Origin: Chiloscyllium plagiosum
Lineage: Eukaryota
Direction of reading: 5' to 3'
NCBI RefSeq assembly: GCF_004010195.1
Contig: NC_057752.1
Location: forward strand, 5,837,904-5,901,903
DNA length: 64,000 bases
Part shown: positions 13,330-48,197 of the stretch, piece by piece
How positions within the stretch are numbered: the first letter of the stretch is position 1
Layout of the letters: the number at the start of each line of letters is the position of its first letter
Position numbers and translations under genes: made by a program
Notes under the pieces: generated by a model
Told to the model about the DNA's origin: nothing
The model's input: the letters and a program-made list of their open reading frames with translations, nothing else
The model's database searches: none

Positions 13330-13364
13330 CACTAGCTTTCGGAGTGACGCTCCTTCATCAGGTG
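13330..13364 (-). ncRNA. Minimal type-I hammerhead ribozyme motif (family B)
   Basis: Reverse complement reads CAC-CTGATGA-A-GGAGC-gtc-ACTCC-GAAAGCTA-GTG. Confidence 0.72.
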
Positions 13365-13375
13365 ATTGTCACAAT

Positions 13376-13410
13376 CATCTGATGAAGGAGCGTCGCTCCG
13401 AAAGCTAGTG
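13376..13410 (+). ncRNA. Minimal type-I hammerhead ribozyme motif (family B)
   Basis: CAT-CTGATGA-A-GGAGC-gtc-GCTCC-GAAAGCTA-GTG. Confidence 0.78.
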
Positions 13411-13515
13411 TGCTTCCAATTAAACCTGTTGGACTATAACCTGGTGTTGTGTGATTTTTAACTTTGTACACCCCAGTCCAACACCGGCATCTCCAAATCA
13501 TGACTAGGATCCCAG

Positions 13516-13935
13516 AATTGTTATGGCGCAGAGGGATGCCACTCAGCCCATTGTGTCTGCCAGACCTTGAAGTAAGCATCATTATCCAGTGCCAATCTCC
13601 AGCCTTTTCCTCATATCTTCGCACACTATTTCTATCCAAATAACCATCCAATCCCCTTTTGAATGCTTCACTTGAACCTGCCCTCGCCACATTTCCAGGC
13701 AGTGCCTTCCAGGTCCTAACTACTTACTGGGTGAGAAATGTTTTCCTCACATCACCCTTGCTTCTTTTGCACATCGCTTTAACTTTATGCCCCTCTGATT
13801 TTTGTTTCTTTTATGAGGAGGAACAGTTTCTCCCAAATTATACTGTCCAGCTCCCGCTCATGATTTTCAAAAACCTCTATCAAATCTCCTTTCAGCCACC
13901 TTCTCTCCTGGGAAAACAATCCCAACTCTTTCCTT
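13516..13935 (-). mobile_element. Degenerate CR1 3' fragment
   Basis: Minus strand AGSSEAFKRGLDGYL. Confidence 0.7.
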
Positions 13936-14152
13936 GTGCCAGTCTTCTTTTCAGGGTGGAGCTGATCTTAGGAATAGGAAGCTGGCACTCCTCAGGGGAT
14001 TGGGCATGGGAAGATGGGGACGGAGTTGGTGCTTCTCAGTGGGGCCAGTATCTGTGGATGCAACGTTTAGTCCCATTCTTCTGAAAGCCAATCATCAATT
14101 GTATCCATGATTTAGACGTCATTTACAACAACAATTTAAACTTTCAGAGTGA

Positions 14153-14917
14153 GTTTTGAGAAGATTTGTAGCTCAGGTTGAGCTGAGCTGGAAGGTTCAA
14201 AAAGAACGGGTACCCAATGAACACAGTCTGCCCATATCTCATTAACAAACCCCAACAAGCAGACAAAACACGTCCAGAAACCCTAACCACTCTCCCCTAC
14301 ATCAAAGACATCTCAGAAATGACTGCCAGACTACTCAGACCCCTTGGCATCATGATAGCCCACAAACCCACCAACACACTAAAACAGCAGCTAATGAACT
14401 TGAAAGACCCGATACAGACAACAAGCAAAACATTTACAAAATACCTTGCAAGAACTGCAACAAACACTACACTGGACAGGCAGAAAACTAGCCACCAGGA
14501 TACATGAACACCAATTAGCTACAAAACGACATGACCCTCTCTCACTAGTGTCTTTACATACAGATAAGGAAGGACACCACTTCGACTGGGACAACACATC
14601 CATCTTAGGACAAGCCAAACAGAGACACACACGAGAATTCCTCAAAGCATGGCATTCCAACCAGAACTCTATCAACAAACACATTGAGTTAGACTCCATT
14701 TACCACACCCTGAGAAAAAGAACAGGAAATGGCAACACCACAGGAAATGACATCACCACTGGAAATGACATCACCAACCCAAAGAAACCCAAGCACATAA
14801 ATAGAAAGCAGGAATCATGTACAGTGCTTCGCCTGAGGCCCACTGAAGATGTTACTGAGTAGGGTGATGAAACGTCTGGAAATGAACCTTCCAGCTCAGC
14901 GAGCAAACCTACATCCA
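14153..14917 (+). mobile_element. Penelope-like element family C, 3' part with short inverted 5' terminus
   Basis: TLPYIKDISEMTARLLRPLGI..HKPTNTL; GRKLATRIHEHQ..H..HHFDWDN..REFL.AWHS (GIY-YIG C-terminus); 14182-14199 is the reverse complement of 14883-14900. Confidence 0.9.
14840..14879 (+). ncRNA. Minimal type-I hammerhead ribozyme motif (family C)
   Basis: CCA-CTGAAGA-T-GTTAC-tgagtagg-GTGAT-GAAACGTC-TGG. Confidence 0.75.
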
Positions 14918-15189
14918 TTACACTTCCATAGTGCTGTCAACGTAATTATGAATATACGGACGTGCTTCACAGGAACATTGTAAAACAAAATTAGAAACTG
15001 AGCCACATAATGAATGCTATTTTATCCTGGATACACATTCGCCTGCATTTCAGCCACAAGTTATTTTATAGCCTAAGTAACTAGGTTAAAAATATACAAA
15101 TATGTAACACCAATGTAGTAAGTAAAACAAATACCTTCAGCAGGGAACAGGGAATGAAGTATTAAAGGAAAGAATATTGAATTAAAACC

Positions 15190-15380
15190 ATTGCATTTCC
15201 TTCACTGTCACTGGGCCAAAATTCTGGAATTCCCTCCCTAAGGGCATTGTGGGTCAACCTACAGCACAAGGACTGCAAAGGTTCAAGAAGGCAGCTCACC
15301 CCCACCTTCTCAAGGGCAACTGAGGATGGGCAATTAATATGGGGCCTGGAACATCGCTGCCTGGGTCAGCAAGTGAACAA
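15190..15380 (+). mobile_element. 3' end of a CR1/L2-clade LINE (same family as 23495-24245)
   Basis: TGGAATTCCCTCCCTAAGGGCATTGTGGGTCAACCTACAGCA..TTCAAGAAGGCAGC. Confidence 0.75.
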
Positions 15381-15939
15381 ATAAAACTCAAATTGCAAAG
15401 CAGTACACAATTCTGACATAGCATGCATCAAATTACAGACAGTGTTCATCACTTATGTACATTATCAAGGACTCTCAACAAGTATGCAATAGGAATATAT
15501 CAGCACCTTTCCATCCTGCATCTTACAGGGTTGAGTATAGTTGAATCGCTGAGTGGTCTTGATTGGACCAGGTGTGATCGTGCGAACCATCTCTGAAGTT
15601 GGGGCGATCGCACTAGGGATTTTCCAAATGTAGTACCATCATGAACCCTCTAGTCTGCTAACTTTCAATCTTTACAGCATGAAGGGCATTGTCATATGAC
15701 TGGGAACCTAAGGAGCTATAAGTGGAGGTAATCAAATGCTTGATCAAAGAATTGGGTATTGAGGAGGATGAAAGTGAGGTAAGGAAGTGTAAGGAGGGAA
15801 TTCCAGAGCTTGAGGCTTGGGCAGCTAAAGATATGGTCACCAATGCTGCAGCAACTCAAATCAGGATGACTAAGAGGCCAGAATTAGAGGAGTGCAAATA
15901 TCTCTGAGAGCTGTGAGGCTGAAGACGTTCACAGAGATA

Positions 15940-16158
15940 TGATTCGGAGATGCTGGTGTTGGACTGGGGTGTACAAAGTTAAAAATCACACAACACCAGG
16001 TTATAGTCCAACAGGTTTAATTGGAAGCACACTAGCTTTTGGAGCGACGCTCCTTCATCAGGTGATTGTGTCACCTGATGAAGGAGCGTCGCTCCGAAAG
16101 CTAGTGTGCTTCCAATTAAACCTGTTGGACTATAACCTGGTGTTGTGTGATTTTTAAC
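15940..16158. mobile_element. PLE family B hairpin insertion
   Basis: Inverted arms; perfect 12-bp TSD TTCACAGAGATA at 15928-15939 and 16159-16170. Confidence 0.9.
16072..16106 (+). ncRNA. Minimal type-I hammerhead ribozyme motif (family B, intact)
   Basis: CAC-CTGATGA-A-GGAGC-gtc-GCTCC-GAAAGCTA-GTG. Confidence 0.8.
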
Positions 16159-17593
16159 TTCACAGAGATAGGGAGGGGGGTGGGAAAGGCTTTGCATGGA
16201 TTTGAAAACAAGAATGGCAGCTTTCAAATTGAGGCCTACTCTCATGAAACATTAACCCTGTTTCTCTCCATAGGTGCTGCCTGTCCTGATACGTTTTTTT
16301 CAACTTCAGATTCCCAACATCTGTGGTGTCTCATTTCTGTATTCATGTGAAATCAGGGCATGGCTTAAGTGGAAGCCAGTGTAGGGGGTCAGAGGGCCTG
16401 CTTTGATTTGATTTGATTGGCATGAGACAGGGTGGGTAAAGGGTGAACAGGACTCAGTGACTGTTAGGAGATGGGCAGCAGAGTTTTGGATGAATGTGGG
16501 AGACCAGCCAGGAGTGTGTTACAGAGTTGAATATGTGAGGGAAGCCAGCCATGCAGTGTTGCCTCTTCACAGTAAAAATACACACTGATGTGCCCCTGGA
16601 AAACCCAGTGCTTGCCATTTTGCCAGTGAAAGTATTTCCTGCATGTTGCCTTGATGTGGCAGACCTTGCCTGTGGTGGATCAGAAGGATGTGGTAGCTAG
16701 AACATTTTATACCCTGCTAATCTTTTCTTTCGGCAGTGTTTCAAATATTCCCTGTTCCAGATGTTGTCTGCAGATTATCCTGCAGGAGAGTATAGAACTC
16801 TGGGACTGCTGATCCTTTGACACATGGACAGAAGGTTCTGGTGTGGTCTCTAACACCGTCCTCTGGACTTGACACAGAGAGGGAGAGGGAGAGAGAAGAA
16901 AGTCAACGGATCTCCCTTTGACTACTTAACCCCAGGCTGACTGATCCTGGCAGCTCTCAGCTGCCTCTGGAAGGGTCATGGGATAGGTACCAAAACAGAA
17001 TGCAAGAACATCTTTTGTCCTCTAAGCTTTACAGAAATGCCCTCTGCTCCCTCCATTTGTGGGCAGCATCCCCTGCGTTCTTTCTGCTTCACTTCCATTC
17101 ACAATTGAAACCTAATAAAATGCCAATGTTATTTGCCAGGAAATTTTATCCTGGGATCAAAATTATGCTTGGATCAGGCTTTCGATAAAAGCTGCAGTTA
17201 AAGATAGCCAATTTGCAAATCTTTGTACCACAGCCCATTTAATCATTCAGCAATTCAATCGAAACAAAACCAACATCAGAATACTTTTAACAAAAACATA
17301 TTTTACACAAAAGTGATTAGACTCTTGAACTGTGCTGCTGTTTCTGAATAAAATTTGGCACTGGATAGGTTACACTTAGTCTGCTGAGCATTAAAAGCAT
17401 ATGGTCAAGCAATATTTTATGCTCAGGAATTGAACCCTATGAAATGAATTGGGACACAGTTTGGTATATTGGAATTTTGCACTTCAGCTAGGTATGTGTG
17501 GAATTGAGTTCAGTGGTCCTTCTCCGAGTTAGTAGGGAGACTCCTGCACTAATAACCTGTGGTGAGTGGATAGACATTTGTTATCATGGAACT

Positions 17594-17858
17594 GGGTGAG
17601 AGGGAAAAGATATAAAAGGGACCTAAGGGACAACTTTTTAACGCAGAGGGTGATGCATGTATGGAATGAGCTGCCAGAGGAAGTGGTGGAGGCTGGTACA
17701 ATTACAGCATTTAAAAGGCATCTGGATGGGTATATGGATAGGAAGGGTGTAGAGGGCCAAATGCTGGCAAATGGGCTGTTAGGTTGGGATATCTGATTAG
17801 CATGGATACGTTGGACCAAAGGGTCTGCTTCCATGCTGTACTGATCTGTGACTCTATG
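17594..17858 (+). mobile_element. CR1 3' end fragment
   Basis: RGKRYKRDLRDNFLTQRVMHVWNELPEEVV followed by the tail. Confidence 0.9.
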
Positions 17859-17989
17859 ATCATAGTTTTAATAATTTCATGGTTATAAATGCACCTCTAG
17901 GAAAACTTTATTCAACTATTTTTCTTTTCCTTTGGCAAGTTTAAAATACCAGGTAAATAAACATAACTGTTGTGCACTGGAGGTTAGAG

Positions 17990-18300
17990 CTTCAGGCTCC
18001 CCCTGAGCAGTTCAGTGCAAAATCTACAGCGCAGTCCTGAGGGAGGGCTGCCTTGTTGGAGGTGCCATCTTTTAGTTGAGATGATAAACAGAAGCCTCCG
18101 GCTGTGTGGGTGAATGCAAGGATGACGTTATTTGAAGTGGAAAGGAGAACTGTCCTTGCAGCTCACTGCTGTGGGTATGATCTTGCTGTGTTCAAATTAG
18201 TTGTCCCATTTGCCTGCATCTTAACAATTCCACACTAATTATTGGCCTTACAGGTGTCTGGGAGATCCTAAGGGCATCCTGAAGTGTTACGAAAATGCAA
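17990..18300 (+). mobile_element. Degenerate SacSINE1-like DeuSINE
   Basis: Deu-domain-like CTGAGGGAGGGCTGC..GGAGGTGCCATCTTT..GAGATGATAAAC. Confidence 0.55.
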
Positions 18301-18836
18301 AGCTCTGTCTCTCTCTTAACATTTCGACTCTCACAAGGTCAGGAGAGGTTACTGCTGTTCTGAGCCAACCCTTTTGTTTGCAGCTTATATGTCCTGTGAC
18401 ACTGCAACAGATGAAATTGAGATGTTGTGAATATCTTCATCCATGCAGCATTCACCCTCAATTATAAAAATGGCCTTGCAAAGCAATTTTAGTGAGAACA
18501 AAAGCACCTTTTCTTTTTGCTTATCCTGTTTCAGTTAATGAGGTGCAGATTTTGGACAAATCAATTGAGGTACATTGTTAGGTTATAATAACTATGATAT
18601 TGATCAATAATGCATTCCTTTAAAATCAGTGCTAAAGGAAAATGTATGCTTCATATATCAGAGAACAACACTGCTGCATTGTCGTAAACAACAGAGTTGA
18701 TTTCCACACCGTAATCTCCCACAAATGATGTAATAGTGACAGGATCGACATTGTTAAGCTGCTGGTTGAAGTATTACATGTTGATCCATAAACTGGGTGA
18801 TCTTAGCTGTCCTTCTTCAGACAATGAGATCTTTTA

Positions 18837-19059
18837 TGATTAGAATAGTGCTGGAAAAGCACAGCAGGTCAGGCAGCATTCGAGGAGCAGGAAAATCGAC
18901 ATTTCGGGCAAAAGCCCTTCATCAGGAATGAGTTGATGACGGCTTTTGCCCGAAACATCAATTTTCCTGCTCCTCAGATGCTGCCTGACCTGCTATGCTT
19001 TTCCAGCACCACTCTAATCTTGACTCTATTCTCCAGTATCTGCAGTACCCACTTTTGCC
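18837..19059. mobile_element. PLE family A hairpin insertion with minus-strand hammerhead (18894-18929)
   Basis: Inverted arms; perfect 15-bp TSD CAATGAGATCTTTTA at 18822-18836 and 19060-19074. Confidence 0.9.
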
Positions 19060-19214
19060 CAATGAGATCTTTTAAGCCTAAGTATCAGTTCTTTTGACAA
19101 ATGACATTATACTGCAGCAAGCTAAATATTTACAGTGTTACAAAGACATGGTTCAGCAGGACTCTATTAAAACCTCTCCCATCAGGTCCCTGCTCCATGT
19201 CATTTTTTGAAAAA

Positions 19215-19610
19215 AAATCATTGGGCATGGATATTTATTGCCCAGAGGGCAGTTGAGACTCAACCACATTGCTGTGACTCATTGCAGGCCCAAGTGAGGA
19301 TTGCTTTCACAGAAAGGCCTTTAGTGAACCAGGTGGGTTTTAAACTACAGAGGTTATAATTAGATTAGCAGATTTCTTTAAAACTGAACTCAAATTTCAC
19401 CATCTTCCACAGTAGGATTCAAAATCACACCCCCAGAATGTTAGAATAAAGCGAAGAACTGCAACTGCTGGAAATCTGAAACATAAACAGAAATTGCTGG
19501 AGAAACTCAGAACGTCTGGCAGCATCTCTGGGAAGAAAGCAAAGTTAATGTTAGTCCGGATTCTAGATTACTAGGCTAGTATCATACCACTGTGTCACTG
19601 CCTCTGCTTA
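19215..19610 (-). mobile_element. Second-family tRNA SINE interrupted by a PLE family D terminus (about 19445-19550)
   Basis: Homology to 31010-31345 and to the family D arms. Confidence 0.6.
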
Positions 19611-19993
19611 ACTGACATATCTATTGAGGTATACTATTAGCATAACAGCAATTAACCCCCTTATGATATATTTTATGCCTACCTACAATTATTGACGGTG
19701 AAGAGATGTCCAAGTGGCTAAAGGGGGATATTCACAAAGAAATGTATTCACCATGTAAACTTAAGTGATGGTTGGTCTGATGTGAAAGTTGACCCCTGAT
19801 GTTTGCCCAAAAACTAATTTGTTTTTCATATACAGCATGTGAGTGTTAACCACTGATTATGCCAGAAAATCCAAGCTTCTTGTACTTGCCATCTGCTTGC
19901 TGCTGAGGTCTCACTCTCCCTGGTGCAAACCTACTCGAAAGAATTGTAGCTCACCATTCAAGATGCTGTTCAGCTCCTCTTGCCTGTGCACAG

Positions 19994-20100
19994 CCGAAAC
20001 GTCGATTCTCCTGGTCCTCGGATGCTGCCTGACCTGCTTTGCTTTTCCAGCACCACATTCTCGACTGTGATCTGCAGTATCTGCAGTTCTCATTTTTCCC
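19994..20100 (+). mobile_element. PLE family A 3' terminus, single arm
   Basis: CCGAAACGTCGATTCTCCTG..GGATGCTGCCTGACCTGC..CTGCAG. Confidence 0.8.
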
Positions 20101-20274
20101 TCCTGAATGCATTAGAGTTCAAGAAACCGAAGAAGAACGTTGGATTTTGGAGAAGCTCTCTACACAGTTTAGGCAGATGCTGAAGAATAAACCTGCAAAC
20201 AGTGGAAAACCTAGGGTGAGAGGGAAGTGATGGGAGCAGGGGGTTACATTCTCTCTCTAATGTTACTACTTTTT

Positions 20275-23490: not shown

Positions 23491-23494
23491 GGAA

Positions 23495-24382: not shown

Positions 24383-24871
24383 CAAGTTTTGAGAAGATTT
24401 GTAGCTCAGATTGAGGTTCTGGATGTAAGTTTGCACGCTGAGCTGGGAGGTTCATTTTCAGACTTATCACCAGTGAAGTGCTGGTGTTATGTTCCGCTTT
24501 CTATTTATGTGTTTAGGTTTCCTTGGGTTGGTGGTGTCATTTCCTGTGGTGATGTCATCTCCTGTTTTTTTTCCCCAGAGGGTGGTAAATAGGGTCCAAG
24601 TCAATGTGTTTGCTGATAGAATTCAATTGGAATGTCATGCTTCTCTGAATTCTTGTACATGTCTCTGTTTGACTGGCCCTAGGATGGATGTGTTGTCCCA
24701 GTCGAAGTGGTGTTCTTCCACATCTGTATGGAAGGATATTAGTGATAGCAGGTCATGTCTTTTTGCGGCTAGTTGGTGTTCATGTAACCTGGTGGCTATG
24801 TTTCTGCCTGTTTGTCCAAGGTAGTGTTTGTTACAGTTCTTGCAAGGTATTTTGTAAATGACGTATATAAA
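24383..24871 (-). mobile_element. Penelope-like element family C, 5'-truncated, hammerhead deleted
   Basis: VIYKIPCKNCNKHYLGQTGRNIATRLHEHQ (GIY-YIG); 13-bp TSD TATACATACATAG at 24370-24382 and 24872-24884. Confidence 0.9.
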
Positions 24872-27582: not shown

Positions 27583-27753
27583 GAGAAAGTGAGGACTGCA
27601 GATGCTGGAGATCAGAGTCGGGAGTGTGGTGCTGGAACAGCACAGCAGGTCAGGCAGCATCCGAGGAGGAGGAGAATTGACGCTTCAGGAATAAGCCCAT
27701 CTGCTCCTCGGATGCTGCCTGACCTGCTGTGCTTTTCCAGCACCACACTCTTG
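27583..27753. mobile_element. PLE family A hairpin insertion
   Basis: Inverted arms; 16-bp TSD ACAACTCA(C/T)CATTCAG at 27567-27582 and 27754-27769. Confidence 0.88.
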
Positions 27754-27759
27754 ACAACT

Positions 27760-28780
27760 CATCATTCAGTGAATATCCTGGAATTCACTGGCATCTCGTG
27801 TACACGTGCCATCTTTAAAAGCCTGAAGTGCACACAGGAAAATACTGTTAATCTGGAGCTACTCTAAACATTTGCCCCAAACATGGAAGAAAGAGGGAAA
27901 TCGGCACCCTGCCTTGTGGGCAGGGTTCAGAAGGTCCTGCTGGATAGTGTGGTACATAGGTGGGACGTCCTCTTCACCCAGCAGTGGAGGACACAATACC
28001 AGATCATGCCCAATCCGATCCAAAGGTACCAACCGGCTCAGTGCAGTCTCCGAATCTGGAGGAATGCTCAGCGCTGTAGGAAGAAGGTCAGTGACCTTCC
28101 CCACCCCACCAGTGTAAGTGCTGCCATCTTCTCTCTGATACCTCACACTCTCACTGTCTCTCTGCTCCTGTACCCACCTCCCACTCTCACTATTGGTGCA
28201 ATATCTTCCCTCACTCACTGTTATCCACCCCAACCCCCTGACATCGCTAACCCTGCATGTCCTCTGCCCTGCCCACTCACTCACTGAGGACACCTCCTCA
28301 TCTGGCACTCACATTCACCTCCTCAATACCTACCTCTTCCAGGAGGACAACAGCCTGCAAGAGGGCAGAAATAGTCAAGATGGGTGGTGTGCTGCCTGTC
28401 ATGTGACTCCTCACCCCTTATGTGGACAGCATCCTCACTCAAACTGCCCTAAGCAAGGCATTGACTGGTAGTGGAGACTGCCCTTGACTTATTGTGCTGG
28501 AAATCCCGCCTTTGTATCTACGCTAAATGGCATTGCTGGACAACAGTAAAAGAACTGATATGTCTGATGGAGGGAGCAAAGTGCAAAAAGGCAAGGAAAT
28601 ACAAGATGCTGTGAGCATCCAGGTAGGCTCAGAGTGAGTGAGTGCTATGGCAGCGAGTGGAATAGCCAGAGATGCAGTCTGGTCCAGTCCATTATCTCCA
28701 TCTGTCTCCCCTGAACACACAGTGTCCTTGCTGCATCATTACAATGATAATTTCCAGTGCAGCCCAAGTTGCAGTATTCA
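27760..28780 (+). mobile_element. PIF/Harbinger remnant with a Myb/SANT-like ORF
   Basis: MEERGKSAPCL...VLLDSV..RWDVLF...RNAQRCRKKVSDL resembles Harbinger Myb/SANT (NAIF1/MSANTD-like) proteins; right boundary uncertain. Confidence 0.65.
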
Positions 28781-28789
28781 GGGCTCCTG

Positions 28790-28900
28790 CCTGAAACATC
28801 GATTTTCCTGCTCCTCGGATGCTGCCTGACCTGGTGTGCGTTTCCAGCACCACTCTAATCTTGACTCTAATCTCCAGCATCTGCAGTCCTCACTTTCGCC
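28790..28900 (+). mobile_element. PLE family A 3' terminus, single arm
   Basis: GAAACATCGATTTTCCTGCTCC...CTGCAGTCCTCACTTTCGCC. Confidence 0.8.
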
Positions 28901-28904
28901 TTCC

Positions 28905-33196: not shown

Positions 33197-34212
33197 AGGC
33201 AAAAGTGAGGACTGCAGATGCTGGAAACCAGAGTTTAGATCAGAGTGGTGCTGGAAAAGCACAGCAGGTCAGGCAGCATCCGAGGAGCAGGAAAATCGAC
33301 GTTTCGGGCAAAAGCCCTTCATCAGGAATAGAGGCAGGTAGCCTCCAGGGTGGAGAGAAGGTAGCAAAGAGTACAATAGGTGAATGGGGGTGGGGATGGA
33401 GGTGATAGGTCAGAGAGGAGGGTGGGGGAAGGTAGCAAAGAGTACAGGACTACAAGGAACCCCGCACCACCCGATTCTACCTCCTTCCCAAGATCCACAA
33501 GCCTGACCACCTCAGCCGACCCATTGTCTCAGCCTGCCCCTGCCCCACCGAACTCATCTCCACCTACCTCGATATTGTCCTGTCCCCACTAGTCCAGGAA
33601 CCCCCCACATACATTCTAGACACGACCCACGCCCTCCACCTCCTCCAAGACTTCCGTTTCCCCGGCCCCCAACGCCTCATCTTCACCATGGATATCCAAT
33701 CCCTCTACACCTCCACCCGCCATGACCAGGGCCTCCAAGCCCTCCGTTTTTTCCTCTCCAGACGTTCCCAACAGTACCCCTCCACCGACACTCTCATTCG
33801 TTTGGCCGAACTGGCCCTCACCCTTAACAATTTCTCCTTTGAATCCTCCCAATTCCTCCAGACCAAAGGGGTAGCCATGGGCACACATATGGGCCCCAGC
33901 TATGCCTGTCTCTTTGTTGGCTAAGTAGAGCAGTTGATCTTCCGTAATTACACCGGCACCACTCCCCACCTCTTCCTCCGCTACATTGATGACTGCATTG
34001 GCGCCACCTCGTGCTCCCGCGAGGAGGTTGAGCAATTCATCAACTTCACCAACACATTCCACCCTGACCTTAAATTTACCTGGACCATCTCTGACACCTC
34101 CCTCCCCCTCCTGGACCTCCCCATCTCCATCAGTGATGACCGACTTGACACTGACATCTTCTACAAACCCACCAACTCCCACAGCTACCTGGATTACACC
34201 ACTTCCCACCCT
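33197..34212 (+). mobile_element. Penelope-like element family A: inverted terminus (33197-33445) joined to an RT fragment
   Basis: FYLLPKIHKP, RPIVS, MDIQSLYTS, KGVAMGTHMGPSYACLFVG, FLRYIDDCIG; truncated by the L1 at about 34213. Confidence 0.92.
33294..33329 (-). ncRNA. Minimal type-I hammerhead ribozyme motif (family A, intact)
   Basis: Reverse complement reads ATTC-CTGATGA-A-GGGC-tttt-GCCC-GAAACGTC-GATT. Confidence 0.78.
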
Positions 34213-34487: not shown

Positions 34488-37400
34488 ATGGCTAATGATT
34501 TGATTAAATGGTGTACCTGGAATATCAAGGGAAGTCACTCACCAATTAAGAGGAAAAAGGTACTCTTGAGTCTTAGAAAGGAGAAGGTGGATATTGCTTT
34601 GTTACAGGAGACACATTTGGATGACAAGGAGCATCTGAAATTACAGCAGAATGGCTTTGACCGAGTTTATTTTTCATCATTCAATACCAGCAGTAGGGGA
34701 GTGGCTATATTGGTTAGGAAAAGTCTCTCATTTAAATTGTTGGAATGTGTTAAAGATACATACGGGAGGTTTGTAATTCTTAAAGCCTTGATAAATGGGG
34801 AAGAATATGGCATTTTAAATATTTATTGTCCCCCCAGCTCATCCTCTTAAATTCTTGGTAGATGCTTTTTCTAAAATGATAAGTCTCAAGTCTCAGCACA
34901 TCATTATAGGTGGAGATTTTAACTGCCTTATGGACCCCACAGTAGACAGGTTGCCTAAAGGTCCCTCGATACCCTCTGCACAAACTAAACAGTTATTGGG
35001 TTTGTGTGGGGAATTAGGATTGGTGGACGTCTGGAGGTGTCTCCATCCTACAGGTAGGGATTTTACGTTTTTCTCCGATCCACATAGATGTCACACGAGG
35101 ATTGATTTTTTTCTGACCCCTGCGGTAACCCTGGATCTGGTGGCATCCTGTACGATTGGTAATATTGCCATCTATGATCATGCTCCAGTGTACCTCATGG
35201 TTAAAATTAAGGATGTTACAGTGGATTCAAGGTACTGACAAATGGACCCCTTTATTCTCATGGACAGTAAGTTTGTGGAGTATTTCTCGAGGGAATTTCG
35301 GGCATTCCTAGACATCAACATAAGCTCGAATGTTAGCTCATCTGTTCTCTGGGAAACTGCCAAAGCTTATGCCAGGGGGTTAGTTATTTCATATTCCACC
35401 AGTAGGAAGCGGCAGAAGGGTGAGCAGCAATGCCTCCTTGAAGCACGGTTGAAGGCCTATTTTGATAGACCCTCGTTGGTCAAACTACAGAGGATTACGG
35501 CACTGCGGTCTACACTAAATTCCGTGCTTACGCAGACGGCAAAGAAGGAGCTGGCTTTTGCAAAGCAAAGGTTATACAAGCATGGTGACAAGCCAGGCAA
35601 ATACCTAGTATACCTTGCCAGAAAGAGAAGTGCCCCACAAACCATTACAGCGATTAGGGAAGGGTCTGGGAACCTAACATGTGATTCTAAAAAGATTAAT
35701 GTGGTGTTCCAGAGATTCTACTCTAAGTTATATCAGTCTGAGAATTGTGAGGAGGGGCAGGCCAAAATGGAATCCTTTTTTAGAGATCTGAAACTCCCAG
35801 GTGTGACTCCCGAACAACGGTCCTTTCTCAATGCCCCACTATCAGAGCAAGAAGTGCAGGAAACTGTGACGCAACTTCAGAGTGGAAAGGCGCCCGGTCC
35901 TGATGGACTTCCCAGTGAATTCTATAAGGAATTTATAAGTATACTGTCAGGCCCAATGCTGAATATGTTTAATNNNNNNNNNNNNNNNNNNNNNNNNNNN
36001 NNNNNNNNNNNNNNNNNNNNNNNNNNNNNNNNNNNNNNNNNNNNNNNNNNNNNNNNNNNNNNNNNNNNNNNNNNNNNNNNNNNNNNNNNNNNNNNNNNNN
36101 NNNNNNNNNNNNNNNNNNNNNNNNNNNNNNNNNNNNNNNNNNNNNNNNNNNNNNNNNNNNNNNNNNNNNNNNNNNNNNNNNNNNNNNNNNNNNNNNNNNN
36201 NNNNNNNNNNNNNNNNNNNNNNNNNNNNNNNNNNNNNNNNNNNNNNNNNNNNNNNNNNNNNNNNATAAGATCTCGCTGTATGCAGATGATGTTCGAATTT
36301 TCTTGACAAATCCAGCAGTCTCAGTGCCTTGCCTGATACAATGCATTCACGCGTTTGGCGCTTTTTCAGGGTATAAGATTAATTTTGCTAAATCAGAGGC
36401 TATGCCTATGGGTGGTCTTACGAAAGAGTTGGCTCTTGAGAGTGACTATAGATTCCCATTTAGGTGGTCACAGGGGGGTTTTGTGTATTTGGGCATATTC
36501 ATTACTCCAGTTCTGGACTGGCTGTTCAAAGCCAATTTTACTCAATTATTTGAAAAAATTAAACAGGATCTTCAAAGATGGGAGGCACTTCCGGTCTCAT
36601 GGTTGGGTCAGATAGTGCTTATTAAGATGAATATTCTCCCTCGTTTGCTCTCCCCTATACGGATGGTCCCACTGATTTTCAATAAACAAACACTCAGGAG
36701 ACTGAACGGTTGGTTCAGCTCCTTTATCTGGCACCGTAAACGGCCCCTCAATAAATTAGCCAACTGCAGTTGCCTCACAGATTGGGGGGAGTAGACCTTC
36801 CGGACATTTAAAAATGACTAATTAAGTTCGCTTTTGACCTACGTGAGTGATTGGGTTCGTGGGGATCCTCTTTCACTATGGCTAGATATCAAAGCCTCCC
36901 AGGCAAGGTGCCCCCTTACCAGTTTGCTGTTTTTGGACAAGGTGAGGACAGTTAGGGAATATTGCCATAACCCAATAGTCATCAATACAGTTAAAGCATG
37001 GAGGGCAATTTGGCAGAGGGAAGGTAATATTGGCAAAACACCTTTGTTTATACCTTAGTGGGTATGTTGGGTTTTCAACTGGGTCTGATAGATTCAGGAT
37101 TTAAATGTTGGGCAGCTAGGGGTATATCTTGCATGGGTGATTTATTTGAGGGAGATGTAATGATGTCCTTCAATCAGTTAGTACGGAAGTACGAGTTATC
37201 TACTAGAGACCTCTTTCGTTTTTTTCAAGTTAGGGATTTTATTTAAAAAAACCCACATTTTTGACTGATCCCTACAAATCTGACATAGAAAGAGAGGTAC
37301 TAAGGGCTAAGAGCACACTCTCTGTCAGTACTTTATATCACTAATTGGGGGGTGCCACCTCAGATGAGTCTGATCGACTCTGCAAGATGTGGGAAAGAGA

Positions 37401-40766: not shown

Positions 40767-40789
40767 TTAGTATAACTTGATTCAGAATT

Positions 40790-41660: not shown

Positions 41661-42579
41661 TCGTTGAGAAAATATGCCCATTTCTATTTTCTCTAAATGG
41701 TGATGATGTTTTACTGCCATTTTTAACAGAAATATTGAATTATATACTTGATTAGTGGACACAGGTTGATATCCTAGATCTTACTTTCCAACATAATGCA
41801 TAATGTTCCACAGTCCATGGAGAGCTTGATAACTCCAATTGGACATCTAGAATTGAGAGGTGAATCAGGCCCTCATATCACTCAATAATTATCTGTTTAA
41901 CATTGTTATCTTTAATATTGCTTTAAAAAAAGACACAAATTCAAAACTTTTCATTGGACACAAAAAAATTGAACTTGAAAGAGAACACCAATTTATAACA
42001 CATGAGAAATGGGTGCTGACTGATTGGATAATGACTGGCATGGAGATGTAGCAGGAACCGTTAACAGTGAATCTTACTTACCCTATTAAACACAGGCCAG
42101 GCAAATCAAAACCCAACTCTGCCTGGTCTTATTCAATCATCAATGATTAATCCCCACTCGAACTGCCTGCCAACGACATGTGATGGAATGATTTGCAGGT
42201 TGATACTCGAACTATTTGGCTGCGTTATGAATGTATCTGCCTGGGCTGTCAAGTCCTGGAGTTCGACTCAATCCCATAGCTTCTGGCTCAGAGGCACATC
42301 TTTCCAAATTGTACTGACCATATATGTGCATAACCCTACACAAACAGGCACTCAGTCATTTTACAGAGTAGCCTCAAAGATGTGAAGAAAGGAACTGCTC
42401 TGTCATTCCATGGTAAAAGGTCAGAGCAGAATATGATCACTCCTGTGATAAGAGCAGATATGCCATAAGGAAAGCATTTGAACTTATTCAAGGGATAGTT
42501 TCAGTTATTACATACTTTGTGTATGTGAATATAGCTGTAATTATTTACTTATCCCTTACACAAAAGTACTATGGACAGT

Positions 42580-42785
42580 GGAAATCGGAAATAAAACCAG
42601 AAGGTGCTGGAAATCAGCAGCTTTGCCAGCATCTGTGGAGAGAGAAAAACAGAGTTCACATCTCAGGTCAATGACCTTTCAGTGACACCCACCAGAACTT
42701 TCGCATGGCAAGTCACAGACCAGAAACGTGAACTCTGTTTCTCTTTCAACAGACACTTGCAGACCTGCTGAGCATTTCAAGTAAT
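42580..42785. mobile_element. Degenerate PLE family D hairpin
   Basis: AGAGAAAAACAGAGTTCAC / GTGAACTCTGTTTCTCT inverted arms. Confidence 0.6.
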
Positions 42786-44085
42786 TTCCATTTTTACACC
42801 CATTGCCCTTGTCTTCAAGGTGGAGGTGGTCATGGGTTCAGAAGGTGCTATCGGAAAAGCCTTCATGAGATTCTGTAGGGAATTTTGTCTGGTATACACT
42901 GTTGCCACTGTGTGTAGGTGGCGAAGGGAGCTGATATTTAAGTATGGCTTTCTCTTCATAAATTGCACATCCTTATGAAGGATTAACTGAATGAATGTAA
43001 TGGGTCTTTCCGTTCACTGACCTCCTCATATTAAATTACTGTAGGATAATACTTCACATTCTCATGCATTATGAAGCATTTCAGTTTTATATACTCGCAT
43101 CCAATGTGAAATGATTGCCTCATTTTGACCTTTGGTTACAAATTCAGAAACCTGGTCACTTCAGGTTGCACTATGTCGACAGCAATCAACCTCTATGACT
43201 ACAGACTCAGGAAAGCCTAAATTCTTGTGTCGGTCCAGTCACCTCTTTTTCAAGATAAATTCTAGTTTCTCAAGTCATCCGCTGTAAGTGAATAGGTGGG
43301 GATTATCTCTTCAAAAATCTCCATTACTGCAGTTCTGACATAACCCCAAGAATGTTAGCCATATTTCCTAGAGACTTCAAATATACCTATTGTGCAACAA
43401 TTCCCAACTGTCGTGAATGTAGCACTTTGACATTGCTTTTCTTGTATTCAATTCTACACAGTATGCACACAATGGCTTGAGCTCTCTTCTGACCCTTTCA
43501 ACTCTGACCTTTTAACCTGACACCCACTTCTTGCTCTTCATTGCAGGGGTGTATGATCATTTCTGTCCCTCCAATAAGGTCACATCTCACGACGACTCAC
43601 TGCCACCTTCACAAGGGCAGCTAGGGATGGGCAATAAAAACTGGTCTTGCCAGTAAGACCCACATCTCATGAATGAGCTTTTATTTTAAAATACAAAATG
43701 ACACAAGGTGATACATACACATCTTTAAATAACTTAATGCACTCAAGTGGATCTTGTTAATTAAATCAATCTCTTGCGGAAATACTTCTTTCCGGTCTGC
43801 CAGTTTATAACTTTTGAGGGTCCAATAAAAATATTATAAAACATCTTACATTTCACAGCGACCAGAATTTCTATGCACTTTACAGCCAACAAAGTACTTC
43901 CTGAAGTGTCGTTAGCTACTGATGTAATGTCGGAATCGTGGCAGCCAGCATTGGTTGAGCATTTCTAATTACTCCTAAATTGAGCGGCTCACTCAGCCAT
44001 TGTAGAGGGCAATTAAGAGTCAACCACATTGCTGTGGGTTTGGAGTCACATGTAGGCCAGTCCAGATTTCCATTCCTAAAGGCAT

Positions 44086-44929
44086 TCTTTGCATTCTTCT
44101 GAAGTTTTGGTTGTAGACTGTTTTAAAACCAAGGATTGTGGAAGGGATTGCTGCACCATTTTTAAAAAGCAAATTACTGAAACTCATTGCAAATGGTGTC
44201 TGCCCTGTTGTTTTGCTCAAGCACAAAGTGAGATTTGGCTGGCAACAAGTAGCTGATTGGTTGTGGGACTCGTGACCAGGTGGAGATGACAAAGGCCATG
44301 TGCCTACCAACAATGATATGATTGGCTCCTGAGTAGCTGAAGAGCATGTCTGTGAGAACAATATTGCCAGAAGCCTTTGGGCCTTTGGAAGGGAGGGGGT
44401 GTGTTTCTGCAGTAGAAGATGTCTGAAGCCTAAAGCAAGCCAGTTTATCTTCCCTCACCTGTTGTTGTAAAATTTTGCTTTTACCCAATGTCAGAGACAT
44501 TGTCACTTGTGAACCAGTCACTCTGTATCTCATGAAAGGAAATAAAAGGTACTTGGAGAAGAGCCAATGATCACAAAAGGATGATCTCAGTGAACCCTCT
44601 CGAGAGGAACCATTGCCTTGCTGGCTTTTGCCTCCACCCATAACAGCAATACTTTTGTCTGTCTGTGTATGTCTTTGTGTGTGTATATAAAAGGGTTAGA
44701 GTATTAAATAGTGTCAACGGTTCATAGTCAGTTACTTATAGCTTGAACGGGTTTATTTGTTAAACTTGTTTGTTTGTCCTTGTTAAGTACAGAAATCTAG
44801 TCCATATTCTGTTAACATGGGTCTACAAAGAGAGATAAATTGAGGACTTTGTATATTTTGATAAAATCTTTTAACCTTTGTGAGGACTAGGAAGACTTGA
44901 TTTCTAGCATGCTGCCCCAGTGAGGCGTG
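44086..44929. mobile_element. Probable LTR remnant inserted in a second-family SINE (44000-45110, minus strand)
   Basis: The SINE is interrupted and resumes at about 44930; the insert ends GTGACA and contains TATATAAAAG. Confidence 0.4.
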
Positions 44930-45294
44930 ACAACAACAATTAATGATTGTTGTCATGGTAACCATTACTGAGACTAGCTTTTAATCCCAAATTTATTAAT
45001 TGAATTTAAATTCCACCAGCTGCTACGGTGGTATTTGAACCCATGTGCCCAGAACATGAGCTTCGGTCTCTGGGCTATTTCCTGCAGCAACATCACCACT
45101 TTGCCACCTTCTCTCCAATGAGCAGCTAATCTGATTTTGTTATTCGAATGAGGGATAAGTACTGACCTAGAAACTTGCAAGAACTCCACTGCTCTTCTTG
45201 GCATTGTGCCATGAGCAGGCAAACAGGTTAAATGAAGTGTATGTCCTCATAGCAACAGACATACACGATACAGGATGGATCAGCATCATAATTG

Positions 45295-45425
45295 TGAAGA
45301 AGTCACTGGACTCAAAACGGTAACTCTACATTCTCTTCACAGATGATGCCAGACCTGCTCAGTTTCTCTGGCAATTTCTGTTCTTGTCTGTTTCAGATCT
45401 TCAGCATTTGCAGTTATTTATTTTC
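45295..45425 (+). mobile_element. PLE family D terminus with decayed hammerhead
   Basis: TGAAGA-AGTC-actg-GACT-CAAAACGGTAACT..CACAGATG.TGCCAGACCTGC. Confidence 0.65.
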
Positions 45426-45709
45426 TTATATCAACATGATAGGAAGTGACGAATCACCACCCTGTAAGATATTAAAAGTTACTCTGTATGCCAGCTCCTT
45501 ATCTGGGCATCAGTATGACTCAGAACCCATGTCAGAAGCCACACACTTTAACCACTAGAAGAAGCTTTTAAAGCTGTAGATTTCCAACATGCTTTGTCTG
45601 TGTACAAGACCAGAGAAGGTCCAGGTGTGTCTCATGAAAGGCTTGGTGGTGAGCAGAATTCATGGATGGAAGGATCACCCCTGACAACAGCTGACTGAAT
45701 AATGTGTGA

Positions 45710-45932
45710 GAAAGTGAGCACTGCAGATGCTGGAGATCAGTCGAAAAGTGTGGTGCTGGAAAAGCACACCAGGTCAGGCAGCATCCAAGGAACAGGAGAA
45801 TCGATGGTTCGAGCATAGGTTCGATGAGCATAAGTTCATTTCTGTTGAAGAGCTAATGCTCAAAACGTCGATTCTCCTGCTCCTCGGATGCTGCCTGACT
45901 GGCTGTGCTTTTCCAGCGCCACACTCTTCGAC
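45710..45932. mobile_element. PLE family A hairpin insertion
   Basis: Inverted arms; 16-bp TSD (14/16 match) at 45694-45709 and 45933-45948. Confidence 0.82.
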
Positions 45933-46006
45933 ACTGAATACTGGGTGAAACAGGGTGAGAATGTCACGGTCAAGGGAACCAACCCAAAATAGAACATGTA
46001 CATGAA

Positions 46007-46218
46007 AACCGAAAAAACTACTGATGCCGTAAATCAGAAACAACATCAGACATTGCTGGAAAAGCTCAGCAGGTCTGGCAGCATCTGTGAAGAGAAATCA
46101 GAGTTAATGTTTTGGCTCCAGTGACGAGAAAAGGTCACCAGACCCGAAACATTATCTCTGATTTCTCTTCACAGATGCTGCCAGACCTGCTAAACAACTT
46201 CTGTTTTTGTTAGTGTTC
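46007..46218. mobile_element. PLE family D hairpin insertion
   Basis: Inverted arms; 15-bp TSD GAACATGT(A/C)CATGAA at 45992-46006 and 46219-46233. Confidence 0.82.
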
Positions 46219-46236
46219 GAACATGTCCATGAATTG

Positions 46237-46575
46237 TTTAGAATCCCTACAGTGTGGAAACAGGCCATTTAGCGCAGCAAGTCCACACTAACTCTCTGAG
46301 CAGCATCCCACCCAGACTCACACCCCTACTCTAGCCCTGTACCTCTGCATTTCCCATGGCTAATCCACCTAATCTACACATCCCAGGACACTATGGGCAA
46401 TTTAGCATCCACCTGACCTGCACATTTTTGGATTGTGGGAGGAAACCAGAGCACCCAGAGGAAACCCACGCAGACACGGGGAGAATGTGCAAACTCCACA
46501 CAGACTGTCACCTGAGGCAGGAATTGAACTTGGGGCACTGTGAGGCAACAGTGGTAACCACTGAGCCACTGTGCC
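46237..46575 (-). mobile_element. HE1-like V-SINE
   Basis: Reverse V-domain and tRNA head. Confidence 0.88.
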
Positions 46576-46829
46576 AACAGGATAGGTTTGGAGGGATATT
46601 GGCAGGGAGCAGGCAGGTGGAACTAGTATAGTTTGGGATTATATTTGACTGGTTGGACTGAAGGGTCTGTTTTTGTGCTGGATGACTGTGTGTGGAAACA
46701 ATCGAGAGGTGTTTTGGAGTATTACTGGATGAACATTTGTGGGACAAAGTGAGTTCTGCAGTTTTCCTCACAATATTATTGGGGTTGAGTAGAGTCCCTG
46801 ATAACTTATGATTGGTCTTTGCACAACTC

Positions 46830-47110
46830 AAATCCTGCCATGGCAGGTGATGGAATTTGAATTGAATAAAAAAGGAAACTGGAATGAAGAATCTAATGAT
46901 GATAATGAAATTGTTGCTGATTGTTGGAAAATGCACCTGGTTCATGAATGTCCTTTAGGTAAGGAAGCTACCATCCTTACCTGATCTAGCCTATGTGTGA
47001 CTCCAGACCCACATCAATGTGGTTGACTCTTGATTGCCCTCTGGGCTATTAGAGATGGACAACAAATGTTGGCACAGCCAGTGATGCCCCCATCTCGTGA
47101 ATGAATTAAA
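46830..47110 (+). mobile_element. Second-family tRNA SINE
   Basis: Homologous to 31010-31345. Confidence 0.72.
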
Positions 47111-47393
47111 AAGAATGTTTTCTGAATAAGCTGAAGACATGGTTAGAGGACGCAGTGGGTCAGAATCTCAACCTTTTACATTAGGGATCTGGTTTCCTAT
47201 AGTTAAAGTTTTCCCTGGCAACTTGAAGCAACATATATCTGTTGGCCTGCTGTCTGAACCATTAAAGGGAACACAGGAACAAAAGAAGGCCATCAGCCCC
47301 TCAAACCAGTTCTGACATTCAATGAGATGATGGCTGATCTGTGCCCTAACTTCATGTCTTTGCACCCCCCCCCCCCCATATCTGTACTATCTG

Positions 47394-47607
47394 CTGGGTA
47401 TTATAGAGGAGGCAAAGTATAACCAGTCAGATCACTCTGCCATCTCTGGGGCAAGAAAGAAATAATTTAAACTTGGGCTCTTTCAACATGCTGTGCAGTA
47501 CTGGGTATTATAGAGGTGGCAAAGTAAAACCAGTCAGATCACTCTGCCATCTCTGGGGCAAGAAAGAAATAATTTAAACTTGGGCTCTTTCAACATGCTG
47601 TGCAGTA
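47394..47607. repeat. Tandem duplication, 2 x 107 bp
   Basis: 47394-47500 vs 47501-47607, two mismatches seen. Confidence 0.95.
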
Positions 47608-47771
47608 AAAATTGCAACCTCGAATGCTTTTAATTGGACATACACTTAACCCTCAGAGAAAATATGTAAAAGCCCTGCCAGAACCACCAATGTTTATAAG
47701 GGTGACTAACCGGAAACTAAAGGCATTCAGCATTTCTCTGCAGAATAGCCAGCACATTATTCTGACTAGAG

Positions 47772-48197
47772 CAGTCAGGTTGCAGTCTGAGGAAGTGTCA
47801 CCAGACTCGAAACGTTAACTTTGATTTCTCTTCACAGATGCTGCCAGACCTGCCGAGCTTTTCCAGTAACGTCTGTTTCTGTTTTAGGTTGCTGTCTGCT
47901 TTGAATAATGTAAGAGATTAGTTCAGCCTGCAATATAATAACACCCAGTTGAAACAGAGCTGCGAACAGTCAGGTTGCAGTCTGAGGAAGTGTCACCAGA
48001 CCCGAAACGTTAACTTTGATTTCTCTTCACAGATGCTGCCAGACCTGCCGTTTGATTTCTCTTCACAGATGCTGCCAGACCTGCCGAGCTTTTCCAGTAA
48101 TGTCTGTTTCTGTTTTAGGTTGCTGTCTGCTTTGAATAATGTAAGAGATTAGTTCAGCCTGCAATATAATAACACCCAGTTGAAACAGAGCTGCGAA
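47772..48197 (+). repeat. Tandem duplication (195-bp unit) containing the PLE family D terminus and hammerhead
   Basis: 47772-47966 vs 47967-48197; the second copy has an extra internal 36-bp duplication. Confidence 0.93.
47784..47820 (+). ncRNA. Minimal hammerhead motif (family D); second copy at 47979-48015
   Basis: AGT-CTGAGGA-A-GTGTC-acca-GACTC-GAAACGTTA-ACT; one stem II mismatch. Confidence 0.65.

What the first reader, a model, noticed from the sequence alone, without database searches (positions are those of the whole stretch)
13330..47820. Four unrelated PLE termini share a hammerhead ribozyme core with covarying stems
Seen: family A TC-CTGATGA-A-GGGC/GCCC-GAAACGTC-GA (33294-33329, minus). 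Family B CAC-CTGATGA-A-GGAGC/GCTCC-GAAAGCTA-GTG (16072-16106). Family C CCA-CTGAAGA-T-GTTAC/GTGAT-GAAACGTC-TGG (14840-14879). Family D AGT-CTGAGGA-A-GTGTC/GACTC-GAAACGTTA-ACT (47784-47820). The core CUGAnGA/GAAA/UH is invariant, while stems I and II change sequence and keep their pairing. Each has one extra nucleotide after the CUGAnGA box. Established: Penelope-like retroelements carry minimal type-I hammerheads that lack stem III. Inference: these are self-cleaving RNAs of shark PLEs. The class is known, but these families may be undescribed.
Basis: partly seen in the sequence, partly recalled or inferred. Interest (0 to 1): 0.8.

Follow-up and report, generated by a model that had tools for sequence, protein, structure and literature searches.

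The report
Penelope retrotransposon ends carrying minimal hammerheads
The four motifs are real copies of a small RNA fold already known from the ends of Penelope-type jumping genes, and paired sequence changes between families show the fold is preserved, so it likely self-cuts in pairs in the parent elements, while these particular leftover copies are mostly predicted to be inactive.

Summary
All four motifs are at the stated places and far exceed chance: 89 strict hits in 1.25 Mb of this genome against 0-2 per control. They are minimal type-I hammerheads in the pseudo-LTRs of Penelope-like elements, a class described in 2014. A, B and D come from Neptune-type elements and C from a Poseidon-type element.

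Corrections: A and D are related; D's family cut is after GUU; the window's D copy is truncated; both B copies sit in head-to-head palindromes predicted to lock the ribozyme. Covariation is real in the A/D lineage (7 of 12 pairs change on both sides), including a young subfamily with the C3-G8 core pair swapped to U3-A8.

Copies' 5' ends pile up 24-42 nt before the cut, about 30 nt after a TATA-like box, not at the cut. Public poly(A) reads end about 30 nt after B's cut and run through it uncut. This suggests an LTR-like layout and reverse transcription of uncut RNA (inferred). Cleavage was not shown. This scan noted the same class before in at least 11 genomes.

The parts
33294..33329 (-). 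Family A minimal hammerhead (box from 33325, stem II 4 bp, predicted cut after 33298, GUC); stem I is 2 bp plus U.U plus A-U
33197..33293 (-). Family A 3' unit after the ribozyme, holding the block shared with family D; copies end at about +60 or +98 from the cut
15940..16158 (.). Family B head-to-head palindrome, one insertion with a 12-bp target duplication (15928-15939 / 16159-16170); the extra tail is on the left arm only
16072..16106 (+). Family B hammerhead, intact core, predicted cut after 16103 (CUA); predicted to be locked in the palindrome
16030..16064 (-). Mirror family B hammerhead with G12 changed to A (broken core)
16115..16120 (+). AUUAAA poly(A) signal, +12 to +17 from the cut; the homologous site in L148 is followed by poly(A) in RNA reads at about +28 to +32
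   Evidence: position carried over to this copy by homology
13281..13502 (.). Second family B palindrome with a 13-bp target duplication (13268-13280 / 13503-13515); hammerheads at 13376-13410 (+) and 13330-13364 (-, stem II mismatch)
14202..14745 (+). Family C: frameshifted thumb-linker and GIY-YIG-type endonuclease remnant without the Zn-finger linker (Poseidon-type, inferred)
   Evidence: no Pfam hit
14840..14879 (+). Family C hammerhead, predicted cut after 14876 (GUC); the extra nucleotide is the U of an AUG (14849-14851) whose frame stays open through the ribozyme
47784..47820 (+). Family D hammerhead, 5'-truncated inside stem I, U.U mismatch in stem II; family cut after GUU (47816)
47979..48015 (+). 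Local duplicate of the family D hammerhead (U.C mismatch in stem II)
62274..63927 (.). Longer family B insertion with inverted pLTRs, an endonuclease C-terminus (62991-63233, +) and a hammerhead at 63834-63868; links B to a coding element inside the window

Best explanation
The four motifs are minimal type-I hammerhead folds in the pseudo-LTRs of Penelope-like retrotransposons (A, B and D likely Neptune-type, C likely Poseidon-type), which likely self-cleave only as dimers in the parent RNA, while the window copies are short insertion remnants predicted to be mostly inactive. SHOWN: motif, family links, covariation, the positions where copies begin and end, and poly(A) addition about 30 nt after B's cut site. 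INFERRED: transcription starts at or within a few bases of the first strand of stem I, about 30 nt after a TATA-like box. A transcript running from one pLTR to the next would carry two hammerheads, which pair through their self-complementary ACGU or AGCU loops to build the missing stem III, probably helped by the element's protein. Reverse transcription would start at one of two sites about 55-65 or 90-100 nt 3' of the first hammerhead. In B both sites lie beyond the poly(A) site, so they would exist only at the RNA's 5' copy. On an uncut linear RNA the enzyme would run off the 5' end after about 90-140 nt, giving the many solo stumps and, with a second arm, the head-to-head palindromes. Long copies would need a jump to the 3' repeat, or a circle made by cutting at both ribozymes and ligating.
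For: Chance excluded. Coding links: B has RT (Pfam RVT_1, E 7e-9 in L152) plus an endonuclease, and a tandem pLTR-ORF-pLTR in L148. A has endonuclease fragments 230-310 nt upstream of the ribozyme. D has short fragments in 2 of 30 loci and longer ones in its sister subfamily. C has one in the window. Covariation on 21 chosen A/D copies: 88% of cells paired against 22-39% when partners are slid, 7 of 12 pairs change on both sides, 0 of 500 shuffles reach the score. U3-A8 occurs in 19 of 19 parsed copies (20 loci fetched) of a young D-related subfamily. The loop dinucleotide is CG or GC in 64 of 89 hits, and CA or TG (CpG decay) in 21 more. 5' ends fall 24-42 nt before the cut in 76 of 136 (A), 28 of 60 (B) and 20 of 26 (D) copies that reach that far. 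Reference-free check: head-to-head cut sites are <=85 nt apart in 37 of 57 A pairs and <=94 nt in 15 of 20 B pairs. A direct repeat flanks 12 of 34 solo A stumps. A TATA-like box lies at -63 to -69 in 25 of 37 long A, 17 of 19 long B and 3 of 5 long D copies. Poly-T loose ends occur at +29 and +32 of B in 243 and 293 reads. Matching published features: PMC4209133, PMC11167929, PMC8557442.
Against: No cleavage was observed. RNA depth does not drop at B's cut (787 to 752 across it), and neither lay listed a pile-up of read starts or ends. The RNA start is inferred from DNA only. The A box is TTTAT-like, not a canonical TATA, and was chosen after viewing the data. The A2 lay listed no poly(A) among the 6 loose ends shown of 161, so the poly(A) site rests on one family, one run, 2% of its reads, and copies 88-99% alike that may be host read-through transcripts. 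In A, 18 of 185 copies map 0-5 nt from the cut (1.6%/nt, above most background bins). Most look misregistered or belong to other subfamilies, but a minor class starting at the cut is not excluded. A's commonest stem I has a U.U pair, and the monomer fold is not the predicted minimum for most copies tested. The 21 aligned copies were picked by me for diversity and are related, so the shuffle result is not a probability; one measure (further pair types, 11 against 13.1) did not exceed the shuffles. Pfam found no GIY-YIG domain in 7 of 7 proteins. No C copy joining the AUG to the RT was found in 18 loci. C shows no short-stump peak (13 copies).
Confidence: 0.8

Rival explanations
1. The fold is kept for a non-catalytic role (protein binding, promoter or start-codon context) and rarely or never cuts in vivo.
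For: Poly(A) reads run through B's cut site uncut. There is no clear pile-up of copies at the cut. In the anole element, ribozyme-dead mutants still insert in vitro and no RNA-seq reads ended at the cut (PMC11167929). In C the motif overlaps an AUG and an open frame. Naiads thrive without canonical hammerheads (PMC8557442).
Against: The C3-G8 to U3-A8 swap, free variation at position 7 and the self-complementary loop are what catalysis and dimer formation require. The anole ribozyme does cut when protein is present.
Confidence: 0.12
2. The ribozyme reading is right, but copies stop at the ribozyme's 5' edge because of local fold-back or microhomology, or self-priming on an antisense template, not because the RNA starts there.
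For: Junctions often use short self-complementary words in the box region. Some pair spacings exceed twice the predicted start distance (69-85 nt in A, 90-94 in B). Antisense self-priming was proposed for head-to-head PLE junctions (PMC3846280).
Against: Solo copies without an inverted arm peak at the same place (24 of 102 A at -28 to -36; 11 of 28 D at -30 to -38), some flanked by target duplications. The peak follows a TATA-like box at fixed spacing in three families with different sequences.
Confidence: 0.25
3. The short units are non-autonomous retrozymes or SINE-like elements copied from their own small master RNAs.
For: Very high copy number, young near-identical B palindromes with similar centres, and a preprint deriving animal retrozymes from PLE pLTRs (10.64898/2026.07.22.740005).
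Against: Junctions differ from copy to copy. Close direct neighbours are few (3 pairs among 70 B copies within 1.5 kb). Longer copies run continuously into endonuclease sequence. The palindrome is predicted to lock the ribozyme.
Confidence: 0.05
4. Chance resemblance in unrelated repeats.
For: Rfam gave no hammerhead match; the stems are short.
Against: 89 hits against 0-2 in controls; covariation; fixed position in the pLTR.
Confidence: 0.01

Closest known systems
Minimal hammerheads (min-HHR) of metazoan Penelope-like elements, Cervera and de la Pena 2014 (PMC4209133)
   Same: Type I topology, no stem III, an extra nucleotide between 9 and 10.1, G10.1-C11.1, palindromic 15.2-16.2, location in pLTRs, many solo copies and close opposite-strand pairs, and a U3-A8 core variant (reported there in Schistosoma).
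   Different: No shark term was found in the parts read or in the 2 supplements searched. Stem II is shorter in A, B and D (4-5 bp) than the 7-8 bp given for Schistosoma. The estimated count of about 2.5e5 compares with 4,000 (coelacanth) and 9,000 (Xenopus) there, though the descriptors differ.
Poseidon_Ac of Anolis carolinensis, Frangieh et al. 2024 (PMC11167929)
   Same: Family C has an AUG at the start of stem II, about 26 nt before the cut, and two 3' ends one tail apart. All four families show the two-end pattern that the paper ties to two internal RT start sites.
   Different: A, B and D carry the Zn-finger linker. B's ORF starts at the end of the tail, not inside the ribozyme. No activity was measured here. 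The parts read do not describe the run-off stumps or a poly(A) site.
EN+ PLE insertions with inverted 5'-truncated pLTR, 30-40 bp tail and target duplication (PMC3846280, PMC8557442)
   Same: Head-to-head arms, tail on one arm, target duplication (8-10 bp in the rotifer passages; 12-13 bp in the window's B copies).
   Different: Here the commonest product is minimal (ribozyme plus tail only), and its 5' end is concentrated at the ribozyme's 5' edge.
Non-LTR retrozymes (PMC7229834; bioRxiv 10.64898/2026.07.22.740005)
   Same: Type I hammerheads, high copy number, proposed PLE origin; one cartilaginous fish genome was among those positive.
   Different: Retrozymes are tandem repeats. These copies are dispersed solo or inverted stumps continuous with coding elements.

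Membership tests
PLE minimal hammerhead (PMC4209133) | Conserved core C3-U4-G5-A6-N7-G8-A9 / G12-A13-A14 / A15.1-U16.1-H17 in type I order | tested here: met
PLE minimal hammerhead (PMC4209133) | No stem III; self-complementary 15.2-16.2 | tested here: met
   CG or GC in 64 of 89, CpG-decay forms in 21; self-duplex of -3 to -6 kcal/mol
PLE minimal hammerhead (PMC4209133) | One extra nucleotide between 9 and 10.1; G10.1-C11.1 | tested here: met
   7 of 7 family hits; G-C in 70 and G.U in 17 of 89 (where the extra base was built into the descriptor)
PLE minimal hammerhead (PMC4209133) | Covarying stems I and II across families | tested here: met
   for A/D; no both-sided change was tested within B or C
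PLE minimal hammerhead (PMC4209133) | Located in the pLTR, in sense orientation, downstream of the ORF | tested here: met
   weakest for the window's own D subfamily (short fragments in 2 of 30 loci)
PLE minimal hammerhead (PMC4209133) | Self-cleavage as a dimer or with protein | not testable with these tools
   needs an in vitro assay; RNA lays showed no cut ends
EN+ Penelope-like elements | RT followed by a C-terminal GIY-YIG endonuclease in one ORF | tested here: inconclusive
   RT met for B; endonuclease read from motifs only, no Pfam hit; RT not fetched for A, C or D
EN+ Penelope-like elements | pLTR tandem or inverted arrangement with an optional 30-40 bp tail | tested here: met
   L148 tandem plus inverted pLTR; bimodal 3' ends in A, B, C and D
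Neptune (or Nematis) clade | CX2-5CxxC linker between RT and endonuclease (PMC8557442) | tested here: met
   present in A, B and the D-related subfamily; not seen in C
Neptune versus Nematis; Poseidon for C | RT phylogeny with named references | not tested
   no named reference sequences on hand; the clade names are inferred
Non-LTR retrozyme | Tandem repeat units each holding a hammerhead | tested here: not met
   few direct neighbours; copies are dispersed or inverted

The most novel reading that the evidence does not exclude
These pLTRs are laid out like a retroviral LTR (TATA, RNA start, a short repeat filled by the hammerhead, poly(A) site, then the RT start sites). The ribozyme pair decides the outcome: uncut linear RNA gives strong-stop-like stumps and palindromes, while RNA cut at both ribozymes and ligated into a circle lets the enzyme copy the whole element and regenerate the pLTR. 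That would give the PLE hammerhead a defined job and explain the hundreds of thousands of ribozyme-only copies.
Probability: 0.25. Interest if true: 0.7.

Novelty: new member of a known kind. Interest (0 to 1): 0.35.

Why it matters
As ribozymes these are more examples of a described class, so the finding itself is modest. What they add: natural compensatory series in stem I, stem II and the 3-8 core pair that support selection on the catalytic fold; a very large estimated count; and a map of where PLE RNA appears to start, end and be reverse-transcribed relative to the ribozyme. What the PLE hammerhead does, and how pLTRs are regenerated, are stated as open in the papers read (PMC8557442, PMC2377424). 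This layout makes both testable.

Tried and rejected
Rfam scan: no hammerhead family; 15 of 16 matches were miRNA models, the best on the B palindromes, rejected as hairpin artefacts. Pfam: no GIY-YIG hit in 7 proteins. Search for a pile-up of copies at the cut site: not found. Search for a family C copy joining the in-ribozyme AUG to the RT: none in 18 loci. Sequencing-run search: no RNA holder on record was listed, which is no evidence either way; run X22 laid 0 reads in both lays, so it is no test. RNA start sites could not be read from a poly(A) single-cell library. Lunse et al. 2017 was not held under its DOI or PMC id; I saw only its reference listing and a review's summary. Literature searches for shark PLE hammerheads or for this layout listed no such paper; 'strong-stop' had 0 occurrences in the 6 papers. 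Subscription journals and Repbase or Dfam entries were not searchable, and supplementary file 1 of PMC4209133 could not be searched; it may hold more species. No RT tree was built.
Full report
OBSERVATION. The four motifs are in the window at the stated places. The window is contig C43 of a 3.56-Gb genome. A strict minimal-hammerhead descriptor (CUGAnGA, one base, stem II of at least 4 pairs, GAAA-nn-UH) found 89 hits in 1,247,155 non-N bases from 130 ten-kb stretches taken at round coordinates on the 42 largest contigs. Each of 10 Markov-2 controls gave 0-2; 73 of the 89 have at least 2 stem I pairs and 34 at least 3. Scaled up, that is about 2.5e5 motifs. For comparison, PMC4209133 reports 4,000 in coelacanth and 9,000 in Xenopus, and PMC7229834 reports 126,247 canonical motifs in axolotl, with other descriptors. 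Rfam has no model that matches them.

CORRECTIONS. A and D are not unrelated. They share a 30-nt block at 90% identity after the ribozyme, they align through the whole motif, and their endonuclease fragments are about 53% identical, against 31-34% to B. C was not among the rows printed for either query. In genome copies of D, stem I is AGUU/AACU and the cut follows GUU. The window copy begins inside stem I and has a U.U mismatch in stem II. Both B loci are head-to-head palindromes with 12-13-bp target duplications, and forcing the hammerhead fold costs 56-62 kcal/mol against the hairpin.

WHAT THE FAMILIES ARE. B: a search with the window's 62991-63233 peptide led to copies with RT (Pfam RVT_1, E 7.1e-9 in L152; 6.9e-6, below the curated cut-off, in L147), a CX4CxxC linker and a GIY-YIG-type C-terminus, followed some 300-800 nt later by the ribozyme on the same strand. 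L148 has pLTR-ORF-pLTR plus an inverted pLTR, and its frame opens with an ATG at the end of the tail. A: endonuclease fragments with the same linker lie 230-310 nt upstream of the ribozyme. D: short C-terminal fragments occur in 2 of 30 loci, and longer ones with the linker in a sister subfamily. C: an endonuclease remnant without the linker lies directly upstream in the window. By the linker criterion in PMC8557442 (passages), A, B and D are Neptune- or Nematis-type and C is Penelope/Poseidon-type. No tree with named references was built, and Pfam did not recognise the endonuclease in 7 of 7 proteins. In C the extra nucleotide is the U of an AUG whose frame runs through the ribozyme; it is open for the first 22 codons in 12 of 16 parsed copies. 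This matches the description of Poseidon_Ac, but no copy continuing into the RT was found in 18 loci.

COVARIATION. Comparing four motifs that were found because they pair is circular, so I tested homologous A/D subfamilies tied by their shared tail. On 21 copies chosen for diversity (A subfamily copies picked from the 143 rows, the others from the 179 rows, plus the two window copies), 88% of cells pair against 22-39% with slid partners. Seven of 12 pairs change on both sides: three in stem I, three in stem II and the 3-8 core pair. Stem I occurs as AUUC/GAAU, AUUC/GAUU, AGUC/GACU, AGUU/AACU and AGCU/AGCU. A young subfamily (top matches 96-99% identical, 2,310 candidates) has U3-A8 instead of C3-G8 in 19 of 19 parsed copies from 20 loci; the same swap was reported in Schistosoma. 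The loop dinucleotide is self-complementary in 64 of 89 hits and a CpG-decay form in 21 more. Caveats: the copies are related, so shuffle counts are not probabilities; the number of pair types did not exceed the shuffles; A's commonest stem I contains U.U; no both-sided change was tested within B or C.

WHERE COPIES BEGIN AND END. Tail-only queries found 203 A, 71 B, 13 C and 37 D segments in the sample; 185, 68, 13 and 36 passed flank and N filters. 3' ends are bimodal: about +60 and +98 in A, +55-60 and +92 in B, +65 and +103 in D, +42 and +79 in C. That is the two-start-site tail of PMC11167929. 5' ends concentrate 24-42 nt before the cut: 76 of 136 A, 28 of 60 B and 20 of 26 D copies that reach that far, at 2.5-4%/nt against 0-1.6%/nt in other bins. 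Uniform and geometric nulls are exceeded, though the two arms of a palindrome are not independent. The peak could be an artefact of upstream divergence between subfamilies, so two checks were made. Head-to-head cut sites are at most 85 nt apart in 37 of 57 A pairs, at most 94 in 15 of 20 B pairs and at most 63 in 3 of 4 D pairs, while 0 of 4 C pairs are that close. And 12 of 34 solo A stumps have an 11-16-nt direct repeat, ending 23-37 nt before the cut in 10 of them. A TATA-like box lies at -63 to -69 in 25 of 37 long A, 17 of 19 long B and 3 of 5 long D copies, and TATAAATA in 19 of 19 U3-A8 copies. About 30 nt further on comes the first strand of stem I, often in an initiator-like context (consensus recalled). 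At the cut itself there are 18 of 185 A, 1 of 68 B and 3 of 36 D copies; on inspection most are misregistered, deleted or from other subfamilies, but a minor class is not excluded.

RNA. Raw poly(A) single-cell reads of run X21 (about 2% read, 2,391 laid at 88% likeness or more) on the upstream pLTR of L148 carry poly-T at two places, 243 and 293 reads, 29 and 32 nt after the predicted cut. The site lies 11-15 nt after AUUAAA and before a GU-rich stretch, and the DNA there is not A-rich. The reads show several alleles, so they come from many loci, and depth does not fall at the cut. This shows that the signal works and that uncut RNA exists. It does not show that the element's own RNA ends there, and 30-nt cut fragments would probably be lost from such a library. 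On an A2 copy (L091), 2,312 reads were laid; depth rises three- to fourfold at the ribozyme's 5' edge, as the DNA copies do, and no poly(A) appears among the 6 loose ends shown of 161. Neither lay listed a pile-up of starts or ends. X22 gave no reads.

MECHANISM. From the literature: minimal PLE hammerheads do not cut as monomers, cut weakly as dimers (PMC4209133) and need protein in the anole element, where uncut RNA is the main insertion substrate and RT starts internally at two sites (PMC11167929). Inferred here: the RNA starts at the ribozyme's 5' edge and, at least in B, is polyadenylated 30 nt after the second ribozyme's cut, before the RT start sites. RT would therefore start in the 5' copy and run off after 90-140 nt, leaving stumps and palindromes. 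Long copies would need a jump across the 70-nt terminal repeat, or a circle formed after cleavage at both ribozymes, as Cervera and de la Pena proposed. My data cannot separate these two routes. Odds: identity as PLE minimal hammerheads about 0.95; cleavage-competent as dimers in parent RNA about 0.8; run-off at the RNA start about 0.6; ribozyme-dependent circle as the route to full copies about 0.25.

PAPERS SEEN. PMC4209133: main text parts 1-2 of 4, and 2 supplements searched with 1 unreadable. PMC11167929: parts 1-2 of 4. bioRxiv 10.64898/2026.07.22.740005: part 1 of 5 and passages; its supplements were not seen and name the cartilaginous fish used. PMC8557442, PMC3846280, PMC2377424, PMC7229834, PMC6155905: passages. 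PMC6765202: passages and half of section 11. Lunse et al.: reference listing only. Searches listed no paper on shark PLE hammerheads or on this promoter-ribozyme-poly(A) layout; Repbase, Dfam and most subscription journals were not searchable.

EARLIER NOTES AND VERDICT. The scan holds 62 notes with these words in at least 11 genomes, and two of the eight shown already suggest that the fold point marks the RNA start. I had recorded that idea before looking and tested it here. No note matched the poly(A) and U3-A8 words. Verdict: real, new members of a known class; interest 0.35, mostly for the mechanistic map.

Noticed in passing
L266-L285 (e.g. L275:1578-1650); not found in the window: Young, abundant D-related subfamily whose hammerhead has U3-A8, C7 and an AGCU/AGCU stem I, with a clean TATA box and Zn-finger-linker endonuclease fragments upstream.
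   Followed up: yes
L148:3621-3641; homologous to window 16115-16135: Working poly(A) site just 3' of family B's ribozyme; the signal sits in a predicted 6-bp hairpin.
   Followed up: partly
window 47817-47837 and other D tails: A pyrimidine tract ending in CAG directly before ATG resembles a splice acceptor; PLE introns near the ribozyme are known in Drosophila. Not tested.
   Followed up: no
window 62274-63927: 1.65-kb family B insertion with long inverted pLTRs around an endonuclease C-terminus.
   Followed up: partly
window 24385-24860: Older family C copy (76% identical) with the ribozyme partly deleted.
   Followed up: no
window 1527-1705, 7128-7269, 18833-19059, 19994-20101, 27586-27755, 28780-28902, 45711-45932, 57587-57674: Further family A arms, several as short head-to-head pairs, most with damaged cores.
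   Followed up: partly
window 47765-48121: Local tandem duplication that repeats the D ribozyme and part of its tail.
   Followed up: no
window 869-1460 and 6349-7012: Two longer inverted repeats not matched to families A-D by my queries, apart from a 16-nt C match near 7020.
   Followed up: no
L004:2643-2712, L215:4335-4395, L239:9181-9244, L190:1226-1291: At least three more A/D-related hammerhead subfamilies with other stem I and stem II sequences.
   Followed up: partly
window 35974-36264 and 56143-56169: Runs of N.
   Followed up: no
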